A stretch of 40,850 nt of DNA from a virus, in IMG/VR virus record IMGVR_UViG_3300045155_000039; one strand, given 5' to 3'. Of this stretch, positions 8,263 to 13,807 are shown piece by piece. The notes under the pieces were generated by a model, which had not been told where the DNA came from, did no database searches, and was given only the letters and a program-made list of their open reading frames with translations. How positions within the stretch are numbered: position 1 is the stretch's first letter; each line of letters begins with the position of its first letter. The translations under genes were made by a program, and so were the position numbers.

Positions 8263-9246
8263 ATGGTAGTAAGTTATTCAGGAATTGCAGGTGCTCGTGG
8301 ATCAAACCCGACAGCAATCGTTTTGCATAATGATGCCGGAAGCCAAGGTGCAACTGCAGCATTTTATAAAAACTGGCTAGAAAGTCATACGCCTTCTTTA
8401 GGGTTTGCTCATTACTACGTTGCTAGCGATGGAACATACCAAGCTGAGAAGGACAGCAACAAGGCGTGGCATACAGGCAACAGTAAAGGTAATGCTAATT
8501 ACTTGGGGATTGAAGTATGTCAATCCATGGGGAATGAATCCACGTATCTTGCGAATGAACAAAAAGCATTTAAGTTAGCTGCCGATTTATGTAAGAAGTA
8601 TGGTTTGAATCCTGCTTCAGCTGTTTTTCCGTTACATCGTGAACTGAGTTCTACATCGTGTCCTCACAGAGCGTGGGATTTGCATGGAAAAGGTGTAGCA
8701 GCTATCAAACAATATTTCGTGGATCAAATCAAAAAATATTACAACGGAGACAGCACATCGAATAATAATTCTGGATCGTCAACTTCCACCGTGACAACCA
8801 AATACGCTGTTGGTTCATCTGTTAAAGTGAAGACTAGTGCTACTCATTATCAGACAGGACAGTCAATCGCTAGCTTTGTAAAAGGCTCGACTTACAAAGT
8901 GAAGCAAGTTAAAGAAGTGAATCAATCACGATCTAAATACGCTTTTCTGTTAGAAGGTATAAACTCTTGGGTACTGGGGCAAGACCTAGAATCTGCATCC
9001 AGCGGTAGTTCAAGCAATTCGAATAGTGGTACATCATTGAAAGGTGCGAATTTGCCGAATAAAGGAAGTTACAAATTTACTGTCAACACTATTATTCGTG
9101 CTAGCGCATCTACTTCTTCAGCGAATGTTGGGATGTGGTCTGCCGGTCAAACAGTTAACTATGATTCTAAAGTAGTTGCCAGTGGATACGTATGGTTAAG
9201 TTGGATTGGTGCTTCTGGAAACCGTAGATACTCAGCAGTAGTATAA
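8263..9246 (+). CDS. Endolysin: N-acetylmuramoyl-L-alanine amidase (Amidase_2/PGRP-like) with C-terminal SH3-type wall-binding repeats
   Basis: Motifs AIVLHNDAGS, AWHTGN, GIEVCQ and SCPHR mark the amidase domain. Ser-rich linkers separate the domains. The C-terminus GYVWLSWIGASGNRRY is SH3_5-like. Confidence 0.9.
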   Translation: MVVSYSGIAGARGSNPTAIVLHNDAGSQGATAAFYKNWLESHTPSLGFAHYYVASDGTYQAEKDSNKAWHTGNSKGNANYLGIEVCQSMGNESTYLANEQKAFKLAADLCKKYGLNPASAVFPLHRELSSTSCPHRAWDLHGKGVAAIKQYFVDQIKKYYNGDSTSNNNSGSSTSTVTTKYAVGSSVKVKTSATHYQTGQSIASFVKGSTYKVKQVKEVNQSRSKYAFLLEGINSWVLGQDLESASSGSSSNSNSGTSLKGANLPNKGSYKFTVNTIIRASASTSSANVGMWSAGQTVNYDSKVVASGYVWLSWIGASGNRRYSAVV

Positions 9247-9253
9247 ACAAATA

Positions 9254-9285
9254 CCCCTTACTCTTTGGAGTAGGGGGCCTTTTTC
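9254..9285. terminator. Bidirectional terminator shared by the endolysin (+) and the minus-strand cassette
   Basis: Hairpin cccc-t-tactc / gagta-gggg is followed by ccttttt on plus and by tatttgttt on minus. Confidence 0.65.
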
Positions 9286-9530
9286 ATTGCTTCGAATTCA
9301 ATCATGATCTTCGTTTTGCCAAGAACACTATATTTTTTCACAACAAACTGTTTCCGCTGGTTATACTCACCAGCCACCACAACCTGCATGTTCTCATCAA
9401 CATCGGCCAAGAAGTTCAAACTATGTGTAGCAATCAAGCAGTTTACATTATTTAGCGAGAAACGAACCAAAGGGGTCTTGCTCATCTTCAACACGCGTAT
9501 CTTCGATACACAGCCTTTCATCGTTTTCAT
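9258..9530 (-). CDS. Hypothetical protein C of the LexA-box cassette
   Basis: The minus-frame ORF is open 9258-9707. The ATG at 9530 has GGAGG 8 nt upstream, with an alternative ATG at 9485. No motif recognised. Confidence 0.4.
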   Translation of the reverse strand: MKTMKGCVSKIRVLKMSKTPLVRFSLNNVNCLIATHSLNFLADVDENMQVVVAGEYNQRKQFVVKKYSVLGKTKIMIEFEAMKKAPYSKE

Positions 9531-9717
9531 AACAATCGCCTCCGTAAGCTTGTACATAATAGCGACAATCCGTTTTACATAAAGTGACAGCAACATAAAA
9601 CTCGACACATTTTTCGCCGTATAAAGCTTCCTGTGACTCTGAAATACTGTCCGGGAATTCATATACGAAATCAGAAAGGGATAAGTAGCCTTGTTCATAT
9701 TGAGCAATAAGATTCAT
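9448..9717 (-). CDS. Hypothetical acidic Cys-containing protein B of the LexA-box cassette
   Basis: The ATG at 9717 is coupled to the upstream stop (TGAAATG), with SD GGTGG 8 nt upstream. 89 aa. Confidence 0.55.
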   Translation of the reverse strand: MNLIAQYEQGYLSLSDFVYEFPDSISESQEALYGEKCVEFYVAVTLCKTDCRYYVQAYGGDCYENDERLCIEDTRVEDEQDPFGSFLAK

Positions 9718-9718
9718 T

Positions 9719-10009
9719 TCAATTGCCACCGGGTTTATACTTTGTGTTAGGGTCGTATTTTCGAAGAATCTTATCTTGAGTCCTAACGTGATCAAATAGA
9801 TAGTTTTCTCCATCTTTCTTAAATACATAGGCTAATTCTTCTGGGTAACCACTATAGCTTGATGGCACGGTAAAATAGGGTTTTCCAAAGTTCTCCATCG
9901 TCCGAACAAACTGATCGTAAAGTAAGTGCGCTGGGCCCATTCGTTCGATGAATTCATAATAGTAGCGTTCAAAAGCATATGTCCGTTGGTGCGCATGTGG
10001 TATTTGCAT
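9719..10009 (-). CDS. Hypothetical protein A, first gene of the LexA-box cassette
   Basis: ATG at 10009 with GGAG 8 nt upstream, about 13 nt downstream of the predicted transcription start. 96 aa, no motif recognised. Confidence 0.65.
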   Translation of the reverse strand: MQIPHAHQRTYAFERYYYEFIERMGPAHLLYDQFVRTMENFGKPYFTVPSSYSGYPEELAYVFKKDGENYLFDHVRTQDKILRKYDPNTKYKPGGN

Positions 10010-10029
10010 ATCAATCACTCCTTGCAAGA

Positions 10030-10058
10030 ATTATACGAACGTTTGTTCTTGTTGTAAA
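10030..10058 (-). promoter_or_regulatory. Sigma-A type promoter TTTACA-N17-TATAAT (minus strand)
   Basis: The reverse complement of 10053-10058 is TTTACA and of 10030-10035 is TATAAT. The spacer is 17 nt. Confidence 0.7.
10036..10049 (-). promoter_or_regulatory. Candidate LexA operator (Cheo box) inside the promoter spacer
   Basis: The plus strand reads CGAACGTTTGTTCT (minus AGAACAAACGTTCG). It fits GAAC-N4-GTTC and matches 9 of the 10 specified positions of CGAAC-N4-GTTCG. Confidence 0.6.
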
Positions 10059-10074
10059 GCGAACAAAAGGTAAA

Positions 10075-10097
10075 GAAAAAAGCCTGCTATGCAGACT
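10075..10097 (-). terminator. Rho-independent terminator after the LysM lipoprotein gene
   Basis: Minus strand reads agtctgc-ata-gcaggct followed by tttttt. Confidence 0.7.
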
Positions 10098-10101
10098 TAG
10101 T

Positions 10102-10587
10102 TTATTTAACCCTGACTTGATCTCCGGGATAAAGCATATAGTAATCAGGCGTGAATCCATTTAACTCAAAGAATTGATCTACTGAAATACCACTTCTTTG
10201 AGCAATCATTTCTGGAGTTTCGCCTTTTTGAACGATTGTATATTCGGCAACACCTGCTTGAGGATCAACTACAGCAACGCTATTCTGTGGTTGTTCTTCA
10301 GCTTCTGAGCTTGGTTCACTGTAAGCAGGGGCAGCATTTTGCTGAGTAGCACTTGATTCTTCGTAAACGATTTCCGACGAACTAGCTTGAGTAGATGAAA
10401 TCGATTCTATAGTGCTAGATTCTTCTTGCGAAGTTTCCTCTTTAGTTGTCTGCGTCGTTGATTCAACAGTTGAAGATGATTCAACAGTACTTGAACTAGA
10501 TGAGGAGCTATTCGTAACAGTTTTTTCATTAGAACAACCAACCAATAGGAACATACCAACAAAAAGTAACCAACTGATTTTTTTCAT
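10102..10587 (-). CDS. Secreted lipoprotein with Ser/Thr-rich linker and C-terminal LysM domain
   Basis: Signal peptide and lipobox MKKISWLLFVGMFLLVGC. SSTVES repeats form the linker. The C-terminus YTIVQKGETPEMIAQRSGISVDQFFELNG...PGDQVRV is LysM. Confidence 0.85.
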   Translation of the reverse strand: MKKISWLLFVGMFLLVGCSNEKTVTNSSSSSSSTVESSSTVESTTQTTKEETSQEESSTIESISSTQASSSEIVYEESSATQQNAAPAYSEPSSEAEEQPQNSVAVVDPQAGVAEYTIVQKGETPEMIAQRSGISVDQFFELNGFTPDYYMLYPGDQVRVK

Positions 10588-10599
10588 AATGTTCTCCTT

Positions 10600-11235
10600 T
10601 TATAATCCCAATAATTCTTTTTTCTTTTCATCAAATTCTGCTTGAGAAATAATTCCATCATCAAGAAGGCCTTTGAATTTTCTCAACTCATCTGCATTGC
10701 TGTCGGCAGATGCAGACCCTTGAGTATTTGAATAAATTATTTGATCCAGTTTAGCAGCTATGTTGTTGTAATCTTCCATCGCCGACTTCGTAAGGAAACT
10801 ATCTGATTTTGATTCTGAAATCATAAGCATATAGTTTTGAGAGCGATTGTCAGTAAGGTGAAGGATGAAGCCTAATCGCTTAATGGTATCAAATTCTTTC
10901 CCGCCAGTTCCAGCTCCTACAACAGCACCAACAGGACCAGCTAAAACGCCGCCAACAATTGCACGTGTAATACCATGATGTTTTTTGATTTTACCACCTT
11001 CAAAAATAGGCGTGTAGCTAATTAACTCATCGTAATTGTATACAGCTTGTGATCTGTTCATGGTAAAAGATTTCTTTATAAATAATTTTCCATGTTTATC
11101 ATCAAAAAACATATCGCCAACTTTGTAGTCACTATGGTTCTTAAAGTATTCTAGTATTTTTTCGTTTTCAGCTTTACGATTCGCTTTTTCAATCTTTGCC
11201 TTTTCTTTATCCGCTTTGCTGCTAAACAAACCCAT
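10600..11235 (-). CDS. SHOCT-domain protein with central glycine-zipper hydrophobic segment
   Basis: The C-terminus LRKFKGLLDDGIISQAEFDEKKKELLGL is the SHOCT motif. AIVGGVLAGPVGAVVGAGTGG is a Gly zipper. SD GAGG lies 7 nt upstream of the ATG. Confidence 0.75.
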   Translation of the reverse strand: MGLFSSKADKEKAKIEKANRKAENEKILEYFKNHSDYKVGDMFFDDKHGKLFIKKSFTMNRSQAVYNYDELISYTPIFEGGKIKKHHGITRAIVGGVLAGPVGAVVGAGTGGKEFDTIKRLGFILHLTDNRSQNYMLMISESKSDSFLTKSAMEDYNNIAAKLDQIIYSNTQGSASADSNADELRKFKGLLDDGIISQAEFDEKKKELLGL

Positions 11236-11268
11236 ACACGTTCCTCTTTTCGTTAATTTTATAGCTTC

Positions 11269-11299
11269 ATTGTATCAGAAAAGAGTCATACTTTGTAAA
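11269..11299 (-). promoter_or_regulatory. Extended -10 promoter for the SHOCT/LysM unit
   Basis: The minus strand reads TGaTACAAT (the -10 is the reverse complement of 11269-11274). TTTACA or TACAAA lies 19 or 17 nt upstream. Confidence 0.55.
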
Positions 11300-11474: not shown

Positions 11475-11549
11475 AAGTACTTGTGCGAAGCGCACCGCGG
11501 TTCATCAACCAAAACGTTTATATTCCATTAAAACCCTTCAAACCAACAT

Positions 11550-11608: not shown

Positions 11609-12736
11609 TTAGAAATAACGTTCATACATAGATATAGCTTCAGTTTCCATTTTCTTAGAAACATGAAGATACACGTTTGCGGTCATATTTATCGAAGAGT
11701 GTCCTAATCGTTCCGATACATATTTGATGTTAGATCCACTTTCAAGCAAGTGTACTGCATGAGAATGTCTTAATGCATGAGGTGAGAGACGAGGTAACTC
11801 GGCTAAATCGCACATTTTATAAAAGTAGGTTCTATAATTCGACTGCTTGATAAAGTCTCCGCGTTCATCTGTAAATACATACTCTTGATTAGGTATGTTT
11901 TTGGATGAAGCAAGGGCTAGCTCATTTTTTTTAATTTTGAAATTCTTTAATAATTCGATCAGATATCTGTCAATTACAATTTTTCTATAGCTTGATTGTG
12001 TTTTTGGAGGGTTTATATAGTCGGTTTTTCCCTCACGATACAAAGTTTTGTTTATTTCTATTTTATTTCTGTTCCAATCATCCCATTTCAACGCAGAAGC
12101 TTCTCCTAGTCTCAAACCAGTTCGTGATAAGAGTGTAGATAGCACAAAATAAAGGTAGTCCATAAAATCATTTTCTTCCGCATGACTTTTGCTGATGTCT
12201 AAAAAATAAACCAAATCATCTTTTTCAAAGAATTTTATTTCTTTTTTGTTTTTGTGTGATTTAGGATACTTTATATTTTTCATCGGATTGGATTCTAGTA
12301 ACTGGTATTCTACAACCGCATCCTCGAGCGCGCTATTGAAAGGGGCAACATAGGATTTGACAGAGTCTACATTTAAGTGATCGCAAAGTTCGTTGATCCA
12401 TGTTATACATTCAAGTCTTGTGATTTCGGTAAGTTTGTAAAACTCGAATCGTGGAAGGATGTACAAACGAATAGATTTTTTTATTCTATATAAAGTTGAC
12501 TGTTTGACAGTCCGTGCTTTCAGATCAATCCACATCTTTAAATAGTCCCCCACGAGCATGGATTCGTTGTATAAGGCCTTCCCCTTTTTTATCCTATTTT
12601 CAACCTCGATAGATGCTGCCAATGCTTCTTTTTCTGTTTTAAAACCTTGTTTGGCAACTTCCCTGTATACTCCGTTTTTCTTATAGCGAACTCGGTAACG
12701 CCAATTATCTTTAGCTACTTCTTTAATGTTTGCCAT
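11609..12736 (-). CDS. int: Tyrosine integrase
   Basis: Start MANIKEV at 12736, with AGGAG 9 nt upstream. Catalytic motifs are RTGLRLGE, HALRHSHAVHLL and LGHSSINMTANVYLHV. Confidence 0.95.
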   Translation of the reverse strand: MANIKEVAKDNWRYRVRYKKNGVYREVAKQGFKTEKEALAASIEVENRIKKGKALYNESMLVGDYLKMWIDLKARTVKQSTLYRIKKSIRLYILPRFEFYKLTEITRLECITWINELCDHLNVDSVKSYVAPFNSALEDAVVEYQLLESNPMKNIKYPKSHKNKKEIKFFEKDDLVYFLDISKSHAEENDFMDYLYFVLSTLLSRTGLRLGEASALKWDDWNRNKIEINKTLYREGKTDYINPPKTQSSYRKIVIDRYLIELLKNFKIKKNELALASSKNIPNQEYVFTDERGDFIKQSNYRTYFYKMCDLAELPRLSPHALRHSHAVHLLESGSNIKYVSERLGHSSINMTANVYLHVSKKMETEAISMYERYF

Positions 12737-12801
12737 ATTGTACCAACTCCTAATATTTGATAAAATAGGCATAGCAAATAAGCCTATATGTTTATTGCTC
12801 T

Positions 12802-12844
12802 GCACGCCTTCTGACCGCCAAGAAAGAGGGGCGTGCTTTTATTT
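12802..12844 (+). terminator. Bulged hairpin with a T-tract oriented for plus-strand termination, between immA and int
   Basis: gcacgcc...ggcgtgc with inner ttct/agaa pairs, followed by ttttattt on the plus strand. No U-run follows it on the minus strand. Confidence 0.4.
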
Positions 12845-13186
12845 GAAATAATTAATGTCGTATCCCATACCAATGTCGAAAGTTTCTATAACCTGACTAT
12901 AATTATAAAAACCATCATTCTCATTAATTATATAGTTGACCATAAAATTGTTTGCTTCGTTTTCCATCTTAGAATGAGCAACAAAATTCTTATAGAGAGC
13001 GACGTAGTCTTCGTGGTCAATTACATGTTTCATCTCGTGAACTATCACTCTTTTCATCTCGTCGTCAGATAATTTCTGATTTACAAAAATGATTTTCCAC
13101 GCAGGAACATAATATCCGTTTTTTTCCATTTCTTTAACTACTATTTTGACTCCGAGTTCATCCAATTGGCTTCGCAGCTCGTTCAC
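12839..13186 (-). CDS. immA: ImmA/IrrE-family zinc metallopeptidase (anti-repressor protease)
   Basis: 115 aa with HEXXH motif VHEMKHVIDHED. GTG start with SD GAGGTGA. It lies directly downstream of the repressor gene. Confidence 0.8.
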   Translation of the reverse strand: MNELRSQLDELGVKIVVKEMEKNGYYVPAWKIIFVNQKLSDDEMKRVIVHEMKHVIDHEDYVALYKNFVAHSKMENEANNFMVNYIINENDGFYNYSQVIETFDIGMGYDINYFK

Positions 13187-13552: not shown

Positions 13553-13568
13553 TTAACTTTTAAGCTAT
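13553..13568 (+). promoter_or_regulatory. Operator-like site TTAACTTTTAAGCTAT (O1)
   Basis: A perfect inverted copy lies at 13734-13749. The site sits just upstream of the -35 of the rightward promoter. Confidence 0.6.
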
Positions 13569-13574
13569 TTTAGT

Positions 13575-13603
13575 TTGACAAATGACTTAAAAGCTATTAT
13601 ACT
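13575..13603 (+). promoter_or_regulatory. Rightward early promoter TTGACA-N17-TATACT
   Basis: TTGACA at 13575-13580 and TATACT at 13598-13603. The AAGCTA-type site at 13585-13597 lies in the spacer. Confidence 0.65.
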
Positions 13604-13624
13604 GTGTTCATAAGCTAATATTAA
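13596..13624 (-). promoter_or_regulatory. Leftward promoter candidate TTAATA-N17-TATAAT overlapping the rightward -10
   Basis: The reverse complement of 13596-13601 is TATAAT and of 13619-13624 is TTAATA. Confidence 0.45.
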
Positions 13625-13733
13625 AGCTAACAAGTACAACGAAAAAACTCATGTTAATTAATTATTCGTGGTCGCCAAACTTTGAATCATTAATATAGAG
13701 CTATTTGTGCGCTTATTTAACTATGTACTTATG

Positions 13734-13749
13734 ATAGCTTAAAAGTTAA
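13734..13749 (-). promoter_or_regulatory. Operator-like site, inverted perfect copy of O1
   Basis: ATAGCTTAAAAGTTAA is the reverse complement of TTAACTTTTAAGCTAT. Confidence 0.6.
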
Positions 13750-13773
13750 CTAGCGTCAACTACTTTCTTTGGT

Positions 13774-13789
13774 ATTAGCTTAAAAATTA
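13774..13789 (-). promoter_or_regulatory. Operator-like site (TAGCTTAAAAA core) next to the cro SD
   Basis: ATTAGCTTAAAAATTA shares the TTTTTAAGCTA core when read in reverse complement. Confidence 0.45.
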
Positions 13790-13807
13790 TTTAGGAAGGA
13801 GAATATT

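What the first reader, a model, noticed from the sequence alone, without database searches (positions are those of the whole stretch)
10075..11299. Autonomous two-gene unit: SHOCT/glycine-zipper protein plus LysM lipoprotein (lysogenic-conversion or superinfection-exclusion candidate)
The unit has its own extended -10 promoter (minus strand TGaTACAAT, 11269-11277) and its own terminator (10075-10097). It lies between attP and the LexA-box cassette and is oriented like the lysogeny genes.

Gene 1 (211 aa) has a Gly-zipper segment AIVGGVLAGPVGAVVGAGTGG in the middle and a C-terminal SHOCT motif. Gene 2 is a lipoprotein (lipobox LVGC) with an SSTVES-repeat Ser/Thr linker and a C-terminal LysM peptidoglycan-binding domain.

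Prophage lipoproteins expressed from the lysogen are known to block DNA injection; Ltp of the Streptococcus thermophilus phage TP-J34 is one example. A LysM-anchored version paired with a SHOCT protein is not a described exclusion system as far as I know.
Basis: partly seen in the sequence, partly recalled or inferred. Interest (0 to 1): 0.6.

Follow-up and report, generated by a model that had tools for sequence, protein, structure and literature searches.

The report
Prophage-end accessory operon: membrane protein plus lipoprotein
At one end of an Enterococcus prophage sits a small self-contained operon encoding a protein predicted to sit on the inner face of the membrane and an optional surface lipoprotein that binds the cell wall; both probably help the lysogen resist other phages, but they are separable, already-catalogued, untested modules rather than a new obligate two-gene system.

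Summary
Window 10075-11299 (minus strand) carries an extended -10 promoter, two genes 12 nt apart and a terminator, about 230 nt inside the prophage's attR end. Both genes are under purifying selection.

Gene 1 (211 aa) belongs to the Pfam PH_gly_zipper + SHOCT family (phrog_888). This is a large, uncharacterised family typical of lysogeny modules in Firmicutes phages.

Gene 2 (161 aa) is a lipoprotein with an acidic Ser/Thr linker and a C-terminal LysM. Its linker and LysM part resembles the host SAG1386/EF1546 family.

The genes are not an obligate pair. About half of the closest relatives have gene 1 alone. The position after gene 1 works as a lipoprotein slot, holding this LysM lipoprotein, a 279-aa LysM lipoprotein, an unrelated 109-aa lipoprotein, or nothing.

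In a sister prophage at the same att site, the same promoter and SHOCT tail flank a zinc-ribbon + bPH_3 allele. That allele is 36-38% identical to TP901-1 Orf2 (SieF7/2A), which gives phage resistance when cloned together with orf3.

An anti-phage role is therefore plausible but inferred.

The scan has met this cassette before in other genomes.

The parts
11269..11277 (-). Extended -10 promoter element TGATACAAT (TG-n-TACAAT). The left edge of the portable gene-1 module lies at 11281/11282.
   Evidence: Sequence read. The element is invariant in 12 of 12 related loci while upstream sequence is unrelated between contexts. BLAST homology to seven other contexts starts at 11281/2. No LexA box and no copy of the 16-nt switch repeat lies nearby.
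11294..11299 (-). -35-like TTTACA, 19 nt upstream of the -10 hexamer. It is not part of the conserved module.
   Evidence: Sequence read. It is present only in loci that share this att region (window, L121, L125) and absent from other contexts. The consensus scan did not call this promoter.
10600..11235 (-). Gene 1, 211 aa, a PH_gly_zipper (PF27000) + SHOCT protein with no signal peptide. GAGGA ribosome-binding site at 11242-11246.
   Evidence: ORF. SHOCT match. phrog_888 at 1.7e-58. PF27000 is precomputed on 95-99% identical proteins. AF2 model pLDDT 83.5. dN/dS 0.04-0.19.
10900..10971 (-). Glycine-zipper segment (residues 89-112, ITRAIVGGVLAGPVGAVVGAGTGG). It is inserted between the two long beta strands of the PH-like domain.
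   Evidence: The most conserved columns of the family are here: A92, G95, G96, G100, G103, A104, G107. Kyte-Doolittle(19) is 1.67, the only segment above 1.6. AF2 models it as a helix at 89-110 with pLDDT about 57, flanked by strands 71-84 and 114-127.
10609..10692 (-). SHOCT domain (residues 182-209).
   Evidence: PF09851, E = 1e-8. Modelled as two helices at 180-192 and 198-209. This 3' end is kept (81% nt identity) when the rest of the gene is replaced by a bPH_3 allele in L125.
10102..10587 (-). Gene 2, 161 aa, an optional LysM lipoprotein cassette. AAGGAG ribosome-binding site at 10594-10599, 12 nt after the gene 1 stop codon.
   Evidence: ORF. Absent from L006-L008 with clean boundaries. 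Only one 95% cluster exists in 5.8 billion proteins. No full-length relative in 50,697 phage records. dN/dS 0.05-0.24.
10534..10587 (-). Lipoprotein signal peptide MKKISWLLFVGMFLLVG with lipobox Cys18.
   Evidence: Read. Pattern match [LVI][ASTVI][GAS]C after a KK n-region and a hydrophobic h-region. No dedicated lipoprotein predictor was available.
10243..10533 (-). Acidic Ser/Thr/Glu-rich linker (residues 19-115, STVES repeats), probably disordered.
   Evidence: Composition: S 28%, E 16%, T 12%; net charge -15.
10108..10236 (-). C-terminal LysM peptidoglycan-binding domain (residues 118-160).
   Evidence: PF01476, E = 3.9e-9. Sub-threshold match to NF042931 SAG1386/EF1546 over residues 65-161 (70.6 bits, cut-off 80). 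The 279-aa allele shares this part at 89% nt identity, from window 10228 onward.
10071..10098 (-). Intrinsic terminator (AAGTCTGC-ATA-GCAGGCTT followed by a T-run) closing the operon.
   Evidence: Found by the scan. Fold -9.4 kcal/mol, z = -2.2. A variant hairpin follows gene 1 directly in relatives that lack gene 2.
11505..11515 (.). Prophage right-end (attR) junction, one edge of the attP core. It places the operon about 230 nt inside the prophage end.
   Evidence: L121 and L125 (integrated beside host queT) share sequence with the window only from about 11511/11512 inward.

Best explanation
This is a moron-type accessory operon at the attR end of a temperate siphophage of the Enterococcus casseliflavus/innesii/gallinarum group.

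**Transcription.** It is probably transcribed in the lysogen from a -35-independent extended -10 promoter. That promoter carries no LexA box and no copy of the phage's 16-nt switch repeat.

**Gene 1.** Gene 1 is the portable, conserved part. It is a cytoplasmic PH-like beta-sandwich with a conserved, borderline-hydrophobic glycine-zipper helix at the tip of its longest hairpin, plus a C-terminal SHOCT. I infer that it sits on the inner face of the membrane, with the zipper dipping into the bilayer. I also infer that it interferes with an early, membrane-linked step of infection by other phages. That could be blocked DNA entry or an abortive membrane response.

**Gene 2.** Gene 2 is an exchangeable passenger in a lipoprotein slot. 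It is anchored by its lipid to the outer leaflet, and its roughly 95-residue acidic linker lets the LysM domain bind peptidoglycan. I infer that it alters what incoming phages or wall-binding proteins meet at the surface.

**Relationship.** The two act on opposite faces of the same membrane but do not need each other.

**Shown versus inferred.** Shown: the operon anatomy, domain content, purifying selection, module boundaries, presence/absence and allele exchange. Inferred: expression in the lysogen, membrane location and the anti-phage role.
For: **Anatomy and selection.**

**Family membership of gene 1.**
- phrog_888 at 1.7e-58.
- PF27000 + PF09851 on 95-99% identical proteins.
- The SHOCT-free core alone finds 559 clusters at 50% identity.

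**Fold of gene 1.** The AF2 model (pLDDT 83.5) has seven strands plus a C-terminal helix, with the zipper helix inserted between strands 71-84 and 114-127. The zipper holds the best-conserved columns and scores Kyte-Doolittle 1.67.

**Published views on the domains.**
- SHOCT-like domains have been proposed to anchor proteins to the inner membrane leaflet (PMC11237479).
- PH and DUF4428 domains replace the transmembrane anchor in homologs of the membrane-bound defence nuclease SNIPE (bioRxiv 10.1101/2025.11.03.685801).

**Lysogeny-module context.**
- Homologs sit beside repressor, ImmA and integrase genes in EH-TP1, phiadh and C4.1.
- In 46 species genomes, 10 integrases plus 1 resolvase lie within two ORFs downstream. 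Upstream within two ORFs lie 13 HTH_3, 5 M78 and 4 S24 proteins.

**Experimental anchor.**
- TP901-1 Orf2 is bPH_3 + SHOCT.
- orf2 and orf3 cloned together reduce EOP and plaque size, or give full resistance, in L. lactis 3107 (PMC7693887).
- Enterococcal P0124 (DUF4428 + bPH_3 + SHOCT) is 36% identical to TP901-1 Orf2.
- P0124 occupies gene 1's exact slot behind the same promoter, and the SHOCT-coding end is conserved.

**Independence of the two genes.**
- Gene 1 is alone in L006-L008, L011 and ten P0045 places.
- No downstream lipoprotein is conserved in about 55 distant loci.

**Lipoprotein slot.** There are three different lipoproteins, always 10-12 nt after the SHOCT gene.
Against:
- No member of the PF27000 family has a tested phenotype. 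Neither PADLOC nor the literature links it to defence.
- The TP901-1 analogy rests on architecture and position. Only the SHOCT part aligns, and the tested construct also contained the ImmA-like orf3.
- Foldseek found no significant solved-structure match.
- The only folded domain of gene 2 is LysM, which fits wall remodelling or adhesion as well as exclusion.
- Many family members lie outside recognisable lysogeny modules.
Confidence: 0.5

Rival explanations
1. The two genes form a coupled trans-membrane two-part system. The inner-face PH/SHOCT protein and the outer-face lipoprotein would work together. The lipoprotein could be a swappable specificity or sensing subunit, with gene 1 alone as a reduced or differently partnered form.
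For: - The genes are co-transcribed with a 12-nt gap and a shared terminator.
- In every place examined, each of the three lipoprotein types lies directly after a PH-type/SHOCT gene: P0001 7 of 7, P0003 2 of 2, P0004 2 of 2, P0127 10 of 10.
- The P0127 lipoprotein follows both the PH_gly_zipper and the bPH_3 alleles.
- A lipoprotein also sits directly upstream of a distant homolog in Furfurilactobacillus (L031).
- The slot has been filled three times with lipoproteins rather than with random cargo.
Against: - Gene 1 is intact and under the same purifying selection when alone.
- The three lipoproteins share no mature domain beyond LysM in two of them.
- No downstream lipoprotein is conserved across about 55 distant family members.
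- The conserved flanks (SHOCT-coding end, terminator and next promoter) are enough to explain cassette exchange by recombination. The lipoproteins may depend on gene 1 only for its promoter.
Confidence: 0.17
2. The operon is lysogenic conversion for host fitness rather than phage defence. The LysM lipoprotein would change wall turnover, autolysin binding, chaining, adhesion or antigenicity. Gene 1 would be a membrane-homeostasis factor.
For: - The linker and LysM of gene 2 resemble the core chromosomal SAG1386/EF1546 surface-protein family. That family sits between a RecQ-like helicase gene and cmk/rpsA in the host (L123).
- LysM is a peptidoglycan binder typical of autolysins.
- SHOCT-like domains associate with envelope-stress systems (PMC11237479).
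- The attR-proximal position is the classic conversion-gene site.
Against: - The slot alleles, and the nearby cargo in relatives, are rich in phage-conflict genes: Kiwa, Shedu-type SduA_C, Abi_2 and SocA_Panacea.
- The allelic partner of gene 1 is a homolog of a protein with a phage-resistance phenotype.
- No virulence or adhesion domain was found.
Confidence: 0.18
3. Gene 1 serves the phage's own switch. It would be a membrane-linked sensor that modulates the ImmA-type protease, repressor or integrase, and so induction or excision. It would not act on foreign phages.
For: - Family members very often lie directly after repressor and ImmA genes and before int.
- The TP901-1 phenotype needed orf2 together with the ImmA-like orf3.
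- On the circular phage map, gene 1 follows cI-ImmA-int.
Against: - Here gene 1 has its own promoter. In the prophage it lies about 40 kb from ImmA, across the att site.
- It travels as a module between phages with unrelated integrases (32-35% identity).
- It also occurs in contexts without a recognisable switch.
Confidence: 0.1

Closest known systems
Pfam PF27000 (PH_gly_zipper) + PF09851 (SHOCT) proteins, PHROG phrog_888. Examples: Enterococcus phage EH-TP1 gp70, Lactobacillus phage phiadh ORFA, Lacticaseibacillus phage C4.1, oenophage OE33PA.
   Same: Gene 1 is a member. It is 56% identical to EH-TP1 gp70 over its full length and 32-46% identical to the others. It has the same Gly-zipper signature and SHOCT tail and the same lysogeny-side location and orientation.
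   Different: Gene 1 lacks the N-terminal DUF4428 zinc ribbon that phiadh ORFA, C4.1 and many other members carry. It lies beyond attP with its own promoter instead of between repressor and int. No member has a tested function.
TP901-1 Orf2/Orf3 = SieF7/2AB of lactococcal P335 phages (McGrath et al. 2002, as cited in Ruiz-Cruz et al. 2020, PMC7693887).
   Same: Orf2 is a PH-type domain plus SHOCT, encoded next to int in the lysogeny module. The SHOCT parts are homologous (55% over 40 aa, E = 2e-8). An enterococcal Orf2 homolog (P0124) replaces gene 1 in the same slot behind the same promoter. This is the only experimentally supported function in this architectural class.
   Different: The PH domain is bPH_3 without a glycine zipper, and only SHOCT aligns in profile comparison. 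The tested phenotype used orf2 together with the ImmA-like orf3. In the window the ImmA-like gene (12839-13186) is separated from gene 1 by int and attP. I did not read the McGrath 2002 paper itself.
Ltp of Streptococcus thermophilus phage TP-J34 (PF07553, host cell surface-exposed lipoprotein).
   Same: It is a prophage-encoded lipoprotein expressed from the lysogeny side. This is the model for how a surface lipoprotein can block DNA injection (PMC3952083, abstract seen).
   Different: Gene 2 has no Ltp repeat domain. Its only folded domain is LysM. It lies on the lysin side of attP, not between int and repressor. An Ltp-family protein does occur beside one distant gene 1 homolog, so the two types can be neighbours.
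Sie2009 of Lactococcus phage Tuc2009.
   Same: [quoted passage not shown]
   Different: It is unrelated in sequence and domain to both genes. It has an N-terminal membrane anchor plus a tRNA_anti-like OB domain.
SAG1386/EF1546 family surface-associated LysM proteins (NCBIfam NF042931), a chromosomal core gene of enterococci and streptococci.
   Same: The Ser/Thr-rich linker and C-terminal LysM of gene 2 match the C-terminal two thirds of the model (residues 65-161 against 64-158 of 158). The nearest non-phage relatives are of this family.
   Different: The score of 70.6 bits is below the cut-off of 80. The N-terminal cytoplasmic and transmembrane part is replaced by a lipoprotein signal peptide. 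The gene is on a prophage rather than at the recQ-cmk locus. The host family has no established function either.

Membership tests
PF27000 PH_gly_zipper + PF09851 SHOCT (phrog_888) | Match to the family models | tested here: met
   phrog_888 at 1.7e-58 over residues 11-211. SHOCT 35.1 bits against a cut-off of 27. PF27000 is missing from the local Pfam copy but is precomputed on proteins 95-99% identical to gene 1.
PF27000 PH_gly_zipper + PF09851 SHOCT (phrog_888) | PH-like beta-sandwich with a C-terminal helix and a conserved glycine-zipper insertion | tested here: met
   The AF2 model (pLDDT 83.5) has seven strands, a helix at 147-175 and the zipper helix at 89-110 between strands 71-84 and 114-127. 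Zipper glycines are invariant in 37 sequences. Foldseek gave only weak PH-domain hits (3dcx, 2d9w).
SieF7/2AB (TP901-1 Orf2/Orf3) | bPH_3 domain of Orf2 (phrog_2700) | tested here: not met
   The Pfam scan of gene 1 found no bPH_3 match. phrog_2700 is hit only over the SHOCT tail. hhalign aligns only 37-57 C-terminal columns.
SieF7/2AB (TP901-1 Orf2/Orf3) | C-terminal SHOCT and position beside int in the lysogeny module | tested here: met
   SHOCT is 55% identical. On the circular map gene 1 follows int and attP. A true Orf2 homolog (P0124) occupies the identical slot in L125.
SieF7/2AB (TP901-1 Orf2/Orf3) | Adjacent ImmA-like metalloprotease partner and a phage-resistance phenotype | not testable with these tools
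   An ImmA-like gene exists at 12839-13186 but is not adjacent. The phenotype needs a bench test. Published data cover TP901-1 only.
Ltp-type superinfection-exclusion lipoproteins (PF07553) | Lipoprotein signal peptide with lipobox | tested here: met
   MKKISWLLFVGMFLLVG|C, by pattern only.
Ltp-type superinfection-exclusion lipoproteins (PF07553) | Ltp repeat domain | tested here: not met
   The Pfam scan at E <= 0.1 lists LysM and three sub-threshold chance matches, with no PF07553.
Sie2009-type proteins | N-terminal membrane anchor plus tRNA_anti-like OB domain | tested here: not met
   Sie2009 carries PF12869. BLASTP of gene 1 against Sie2009 gives E = 0.23.
SAG1386/EF1546 family (NF042931) | Whole-protein score above the curated cut-off | tested here: not met
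   70.6 bits against a cut-off of 80, and only model positions 64-158 are matched. Bona fide member P0005 scores 127 bits.
LysM domain (PF01476) | Match above the gathering threshold | tested here: met
   36.7 bits against 20.9, residues 118-160.
Moron (phage accessory transcription unit) | Own promoter and terminator, and presence/absence between otherwise related phages | tested here: met
   The homology block starts at the extended -10 element in seven or more contexts. The terminator is conserved. Gene 2 is present or absent with clean boundaries. Promoter activity itself was not tested.
Known anti-phage defence systems (PADLOC-DB 2.0) | Match to any defence-protein model | tested here: not met
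   Gene 1 has no hits. Gene 2 has only one chance-level hit, E = 0.023.

The most novel reading that the evidence does not exclude
The PH-type/SHOCT protein and the lipoprotein behind it form a modular, membrane-spanning exclusion device. It would have a conserved inner-face effector (glycine-zipper or bPH_3 version) and an exchangeable outer-face lipoprotein (LysM-tethered or not). The lipoprotein would set which incoming phages are sensed or blocked. This would be an undescribed two-sided superinfection-exclusion architecture in Gram-positive prophages.
Probability: 0.12. Interest if true: 0.7.

Novelty: new member of a known kind. Interest (0 to 1): 0.33.

Why it matters
[quoted passage not shown] The gene 1 core alone finds 559 clusters at 50% identity.

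This locus offers a clean natural experiment. One promoter and one SHOCT tail occur with two alternative PH-type bodies, one of them related to the only member of the class with a phage-resistance phenotype. Behind them lie four alternative states of a lipoprotein slot.

That makes the function directly testable by allele swaps in enterococci. Prophage-encoded resistance in these bacteria bears on phage therapy and gut ecology.

As it stands, this is an ordinary accessory cassette made of catalogued but untested families, and the scan has already reported it in other genomes.

Tried and rejected
- **Capture of gene 2 from the neighbouring host LysM gene.** I tested whether gene 2 was picked up from the host LysM gene beside the att site in E. 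casseliflavus (L118). It was not: BLASTP gives E = 0.29 and the host protein has a different architecture.
- **Gene 1 as a Sie2009 relative.** Rejected.
- **The 109-aa slot lipoprotein P0127 as a Sie2009-like OB protein.** No similarity was found.
- **Gene 2 as an Ltp relative.** Rejected. The phrog 'superinfection exclusion' hit (phrog_15667, E = 0.0037, residues 1-100) covers only the signal peptide and the low-complexity linker.
- **Structure search for gene 1.** Nothing significant in the PDB. The viral library returned only uncharacterised SHOCT proteins.
- **AF2 of the bPH_3 allele P0124.** The model reached only pLDDT 60 from a three-sequence alignment. I used it only for strand order and ran no fold search on it.
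- **Regulation of the promoter by LexA or by the switch repeat.** No site was found nearby. The AAGCTA hexamer just after the -10 is not conserved in relatives, so I treat it as chance.
- **Locating the Ltp-family neighbour reported.** Regex searches failed, so that locus remains unidentified.
- **Whole-genome search.** No genome is held for this window.
- **N-terminal domain of the 279-aa allele.** No Pfam family matched it.
Full report
**Observation**

Window 10075-11299 holds two minus-strand ORFs, 10600-11235 (211 aa) and 10102-10587 (161 aa). They are separated by 12 nt and each has a good ribosome-binding site.

Gene 2 starts with MKKISWLLFVGMFLLVGC. It continues with a 97-residue linker that is 28% Ser, 16% Glu and 12% Thr, with net charge -15. 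It ends in a LysM domain (PF01476, 36.7 bits).

The terminator at 10098-10080 was found by the scan. It folds at -9.4 kcal/mol, z = -2.2.

TGATACAAT lies at 11277-11269. The consensus scan missed it because the -35-like TTTACA is 19 nt away.

Both genes are under purifying selection among close relatives. dN/dS is 0.04-0.19 for gene 1 and 0.05-0.24 for gene 2.

**Setting**

The window is a circularly permuted temperate-phage genome.
- An endolysin (Amidase_2 + SH3_5) lies at 8263-9246(+).
- A tyrosine integrase lies at 11609-12805(-).
- An ImmA-like gene and an XRE repressor lie beyond the integrase.
- Proteins 95-99% identical to gene 1 come from Enterococcus innesii, E. casseliflavus and E. 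gallinarum.

Integrated copies (L121, L125, beside host queT) share sequence with the window only from about 11512 inward. In the prophage, therefore, the operon is the first thing inside attR and points inward towards the lysin.

The next unit (DUF5960, 9719-10027) has its own promoter containing the window's only perfect Cheo box, at 10037-10048.

**The promoter is supported by comparison, not only by consensus**

In 12 related loci the block TTTCTGATACAAT...GAGGA...ATG is invariant. Everything upstream of it belongs to at least five unrelated contexts. BLAST homology to the window begins at 11281/11282 in seven contexts that have different integrases and att sites.

The portable module therefore begins exactly at an extended -10 element and carries no -35. 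No LexA box and no copy of the phage's 16-nt switch repeat lies near it. Constitutive transcription in the lysogen is the simplest expectation.

**Gene 1**

Family. It is a full-length member of phrog_888 (1.7e-58). The newest Pfam labels near-identical proteins PF27000 'PH_gly_zipper' + SHOCT. Its SHOCT-free core (residues 35-176) finds 559 clusters at 50% identity with E <= 1e-3, and 90 with E <= 1e-10, among 1.84 billion representatives.

Conservation. In a 37-sequence alignment the best-conserved columns are the zipper (A92, G95, G96, G100, G103, A104, G107) and the SHOCT core.

Structure. An AF2 model (pLDDT 83.5) has these parts:
- an N-terminal charged helix;
- seven strands;
- a long C-terminal helix (147-175), which together with the strands gives the PH-fold pattern;
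- two SHOCT helices;
- the zipper as a low-confidence helix (89-110) at the tip of the longest hairpin (strands 71-84 and 114-127).

The zipper is the only segment reaching Kyte-Doolittle 1.67. Because it interrupts a single beta-sandwich, a re-entrant or peripheral insertion is more plausible than a membrane-spanning helix (inference). Foldseek found nothing significant among solved structures. In the viral library it found only uncharacterised SHOCT proteins.

Published views of the parts point the same way.
- SHOCT-like domains are proposed to tether proteins to the inner leaflet (PMC11237479).
- SHOCT did not behave as an oligomerisation domain when tested (PMC3581485).
- PH and DUF4428 domains stand in for the membrane anchor of the defence nuclease SNIPE (bioRxiv 10.1101/2025.11.03.685801).

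**Where the family lives**

Homologs sit in lysogeny modules.
- EH-TP1 gp70 lies after int.
- phiadh ORFA lies between ImmA and int.
- Lacticaseibacillus C4.1 and OE33PA carry homologs as well.

In 46 species-representative genomes with full-length members, the two ORFs downstream include 10 tyrosine integrases and 1 resolvase. The two ORFs upstream include 13 HTH_3, 5 Peptidase_M78 and 4 S24 proteins. One Ltp-family protein and one Abi_2 protein are also neighbours.

The family is absent from PADLOC. No paper links SHOCT to anti-phage function.

**An experimental anchor, found by following an earlier scan note**

- TP901-1 Orf2 is bPH_3 + SHOCT, and Orf3 is an ImmA-like M78 protease.
- The pair is identical to SieF7/2AB. 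Cloned together in L. lactis 3107, it lowered EOP and plaque size for two skunaviruses and gave complete resistance to P087 and WRP3 (PMC7693887).
- Only the SHOCT part aligns with gene 1, so gene 1 is not a member of that family.
- Enterococcal P0124 has a DUF4428 zinc ribbon, bPH_3 and SHOCT. It is 36% identical to Orf2.
- P0124 sits in exactly gene 1's place, in a prophage at the same att site as L121 (L125).
- The 264 nt upstream, promoter included, are 93.6% identical to window 11511-11248. The SHOCT-coding 3' end is 81% identical to window 10695-10579. The middle is replaced.

The two PH-type bodies are thus alleles of one slot. This is the best available reason to expect a related role. 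It remains an inference.

**Gene 2 is an optional cassette**

In L006-L008 (gene 1 about 96% identical), the gene 1 stop codon is followed directly by the terminator and the DUF5960 promoter. In the window, L005, L009 and L010, the 498-nt gene 2 cassette is inserted between stop codon and terminator.

Ten places carrying the 90%-identical P0045 also lack it.

Gene 2 is rare. There is one 95% cluster with 19 members among 5.8 billion proteins. There is no full-length relative in 50,697 phage records.

Its linker and LysM resemble the chromosomal SAG1386/EF1546 family. The score of 70.6 bits is below the cut-off of 80. A host member of that family lies between a RecQ-like helicase gene and cmk/rpsA.

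The host LysM gene beside the att site in E. casseliflavus is not the source.

**A lipoprotein slot**

The same position holds two other lipoproteins.
- P0003/P0004 is a 279-280-aa lipoprotein of phrog_37326. It shares only the LysM part (from window 10228 onward) and the first 8 nt with gene 2.
- P0127 is an unrelated 109-aa lipoprotein of phrog_9078. It follows the glycine-zipper allele in 8 places shown and the bPH_3 allele in 2.

All three lipoprotein types were seen only directly after a PH-type/SHOCT gene, 10-12 nt from its stop codon. Across about 55 distant family members there is no conserved downstream lipoprotein.

The asymmetry is this: the lipoproteins always follow gene 1, whereas gene 1 is often alone. 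Conserved recombination flanks and the need for a promoter are enough to explain it. A functional link is not excluded, and I keep it as a rival at 0.17.

**Verdict**

The 'autonomous unit' is a real moron-type operon.

The 'two-gene system' reading is not supported. These are two separable accessory modules from catalogued but untested families. Gene 1 is a new member of PF27000/phrog_888. Gene 2 is a rare phage-borne lipoprotein derivative of a host LysM surface-protein family.

The most likely role is protection of the lysogen at the envelope, with an inner-face PH/SHOCT protein and an outer-face wall-bound lipoprotein. I hold that with moderate confidence (0.5).

The scan has already met the same cassette in other genomes. 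Those notes reached similar conclusions. I used them as leads and re-tested the TP901-1 link here.

Noticed in passing
L108-L117, L127-L136 (relatives of window 9258-10058): Downstream of gene 1 and the DUF5960 gene, the cargo region of related enterococcal prophages carries known conflict genes: KwaA/KwaB (Kiwa), SduA_C (Shedu-type), SocA_Panacea, HipA_2, Abi_2 and DUF3800. A Y-family polymerase (IMS) is a frequent cargo. The attR-proximal end therefore looks like a defence and SOS-cargo hotspot.
   Followed up: partly
L111 and L112 (GCA_046195325.1, about 45.6 kb apart): The same genome holds two copies of the gene 1-DUF5960 block one phage length apart. One follows host genes. The other follows a repressor-ImmA-serine recombinase set. 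This fits tandem prophages or a tandem duplication.
   Followed up: no
window 11250-11256: Many homologs are annotated as 217 aa, from an upstream in-frame ATG (MKRGT.M...). In the window and in L121 that codon is ACG. The conserved start is therefore the ATG at 11235 (MGLF...), with GAGGA 6 nt upstream.
   Followed up: yes
L127:4836-5291: A second SHOCT gene (DUF4429 + SHOCT, 151 aa) lies in the same cargo region as the gene 1 homolog. One prophage can therefore carry two different PH-type/SHOCT proteins.
   Followed up: no
L123:3752-6810: The host SAG1386/EF1546-type LysM gene lies between a RecQ-like helicase gene and cmk-rpsA-der-hup. From memory, this is the same neighbourhood as ebpS in Staphylococcus aureus. 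EbpS also ends in LysM, which suggests a conserved but poorly understood Firmicutes surface protein. The EbpS part was not checked here.
   Followed up: no
L031:3977-5588: In a Furfurilactobacillus curtus prophage, a 215-aa low-complexity lipoprotein lies directly upstream of the PH_gly_zipper/SHOCT homolog, between the repressor and int. This is an independent lipoprotein + SHOCT-gene neighbourhood in a distant genus.
   Followed up: partly
window 11262-11267: An AAGCTA hexamer, the core of the repeats at the genetic switch (13553-13790), lies just after the -10 of the gene 1 promoter. It is not conserved in relatives, and no longer match to the 16-nt switch repeat exists there, so it is probably chance.
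   Followed up: yes
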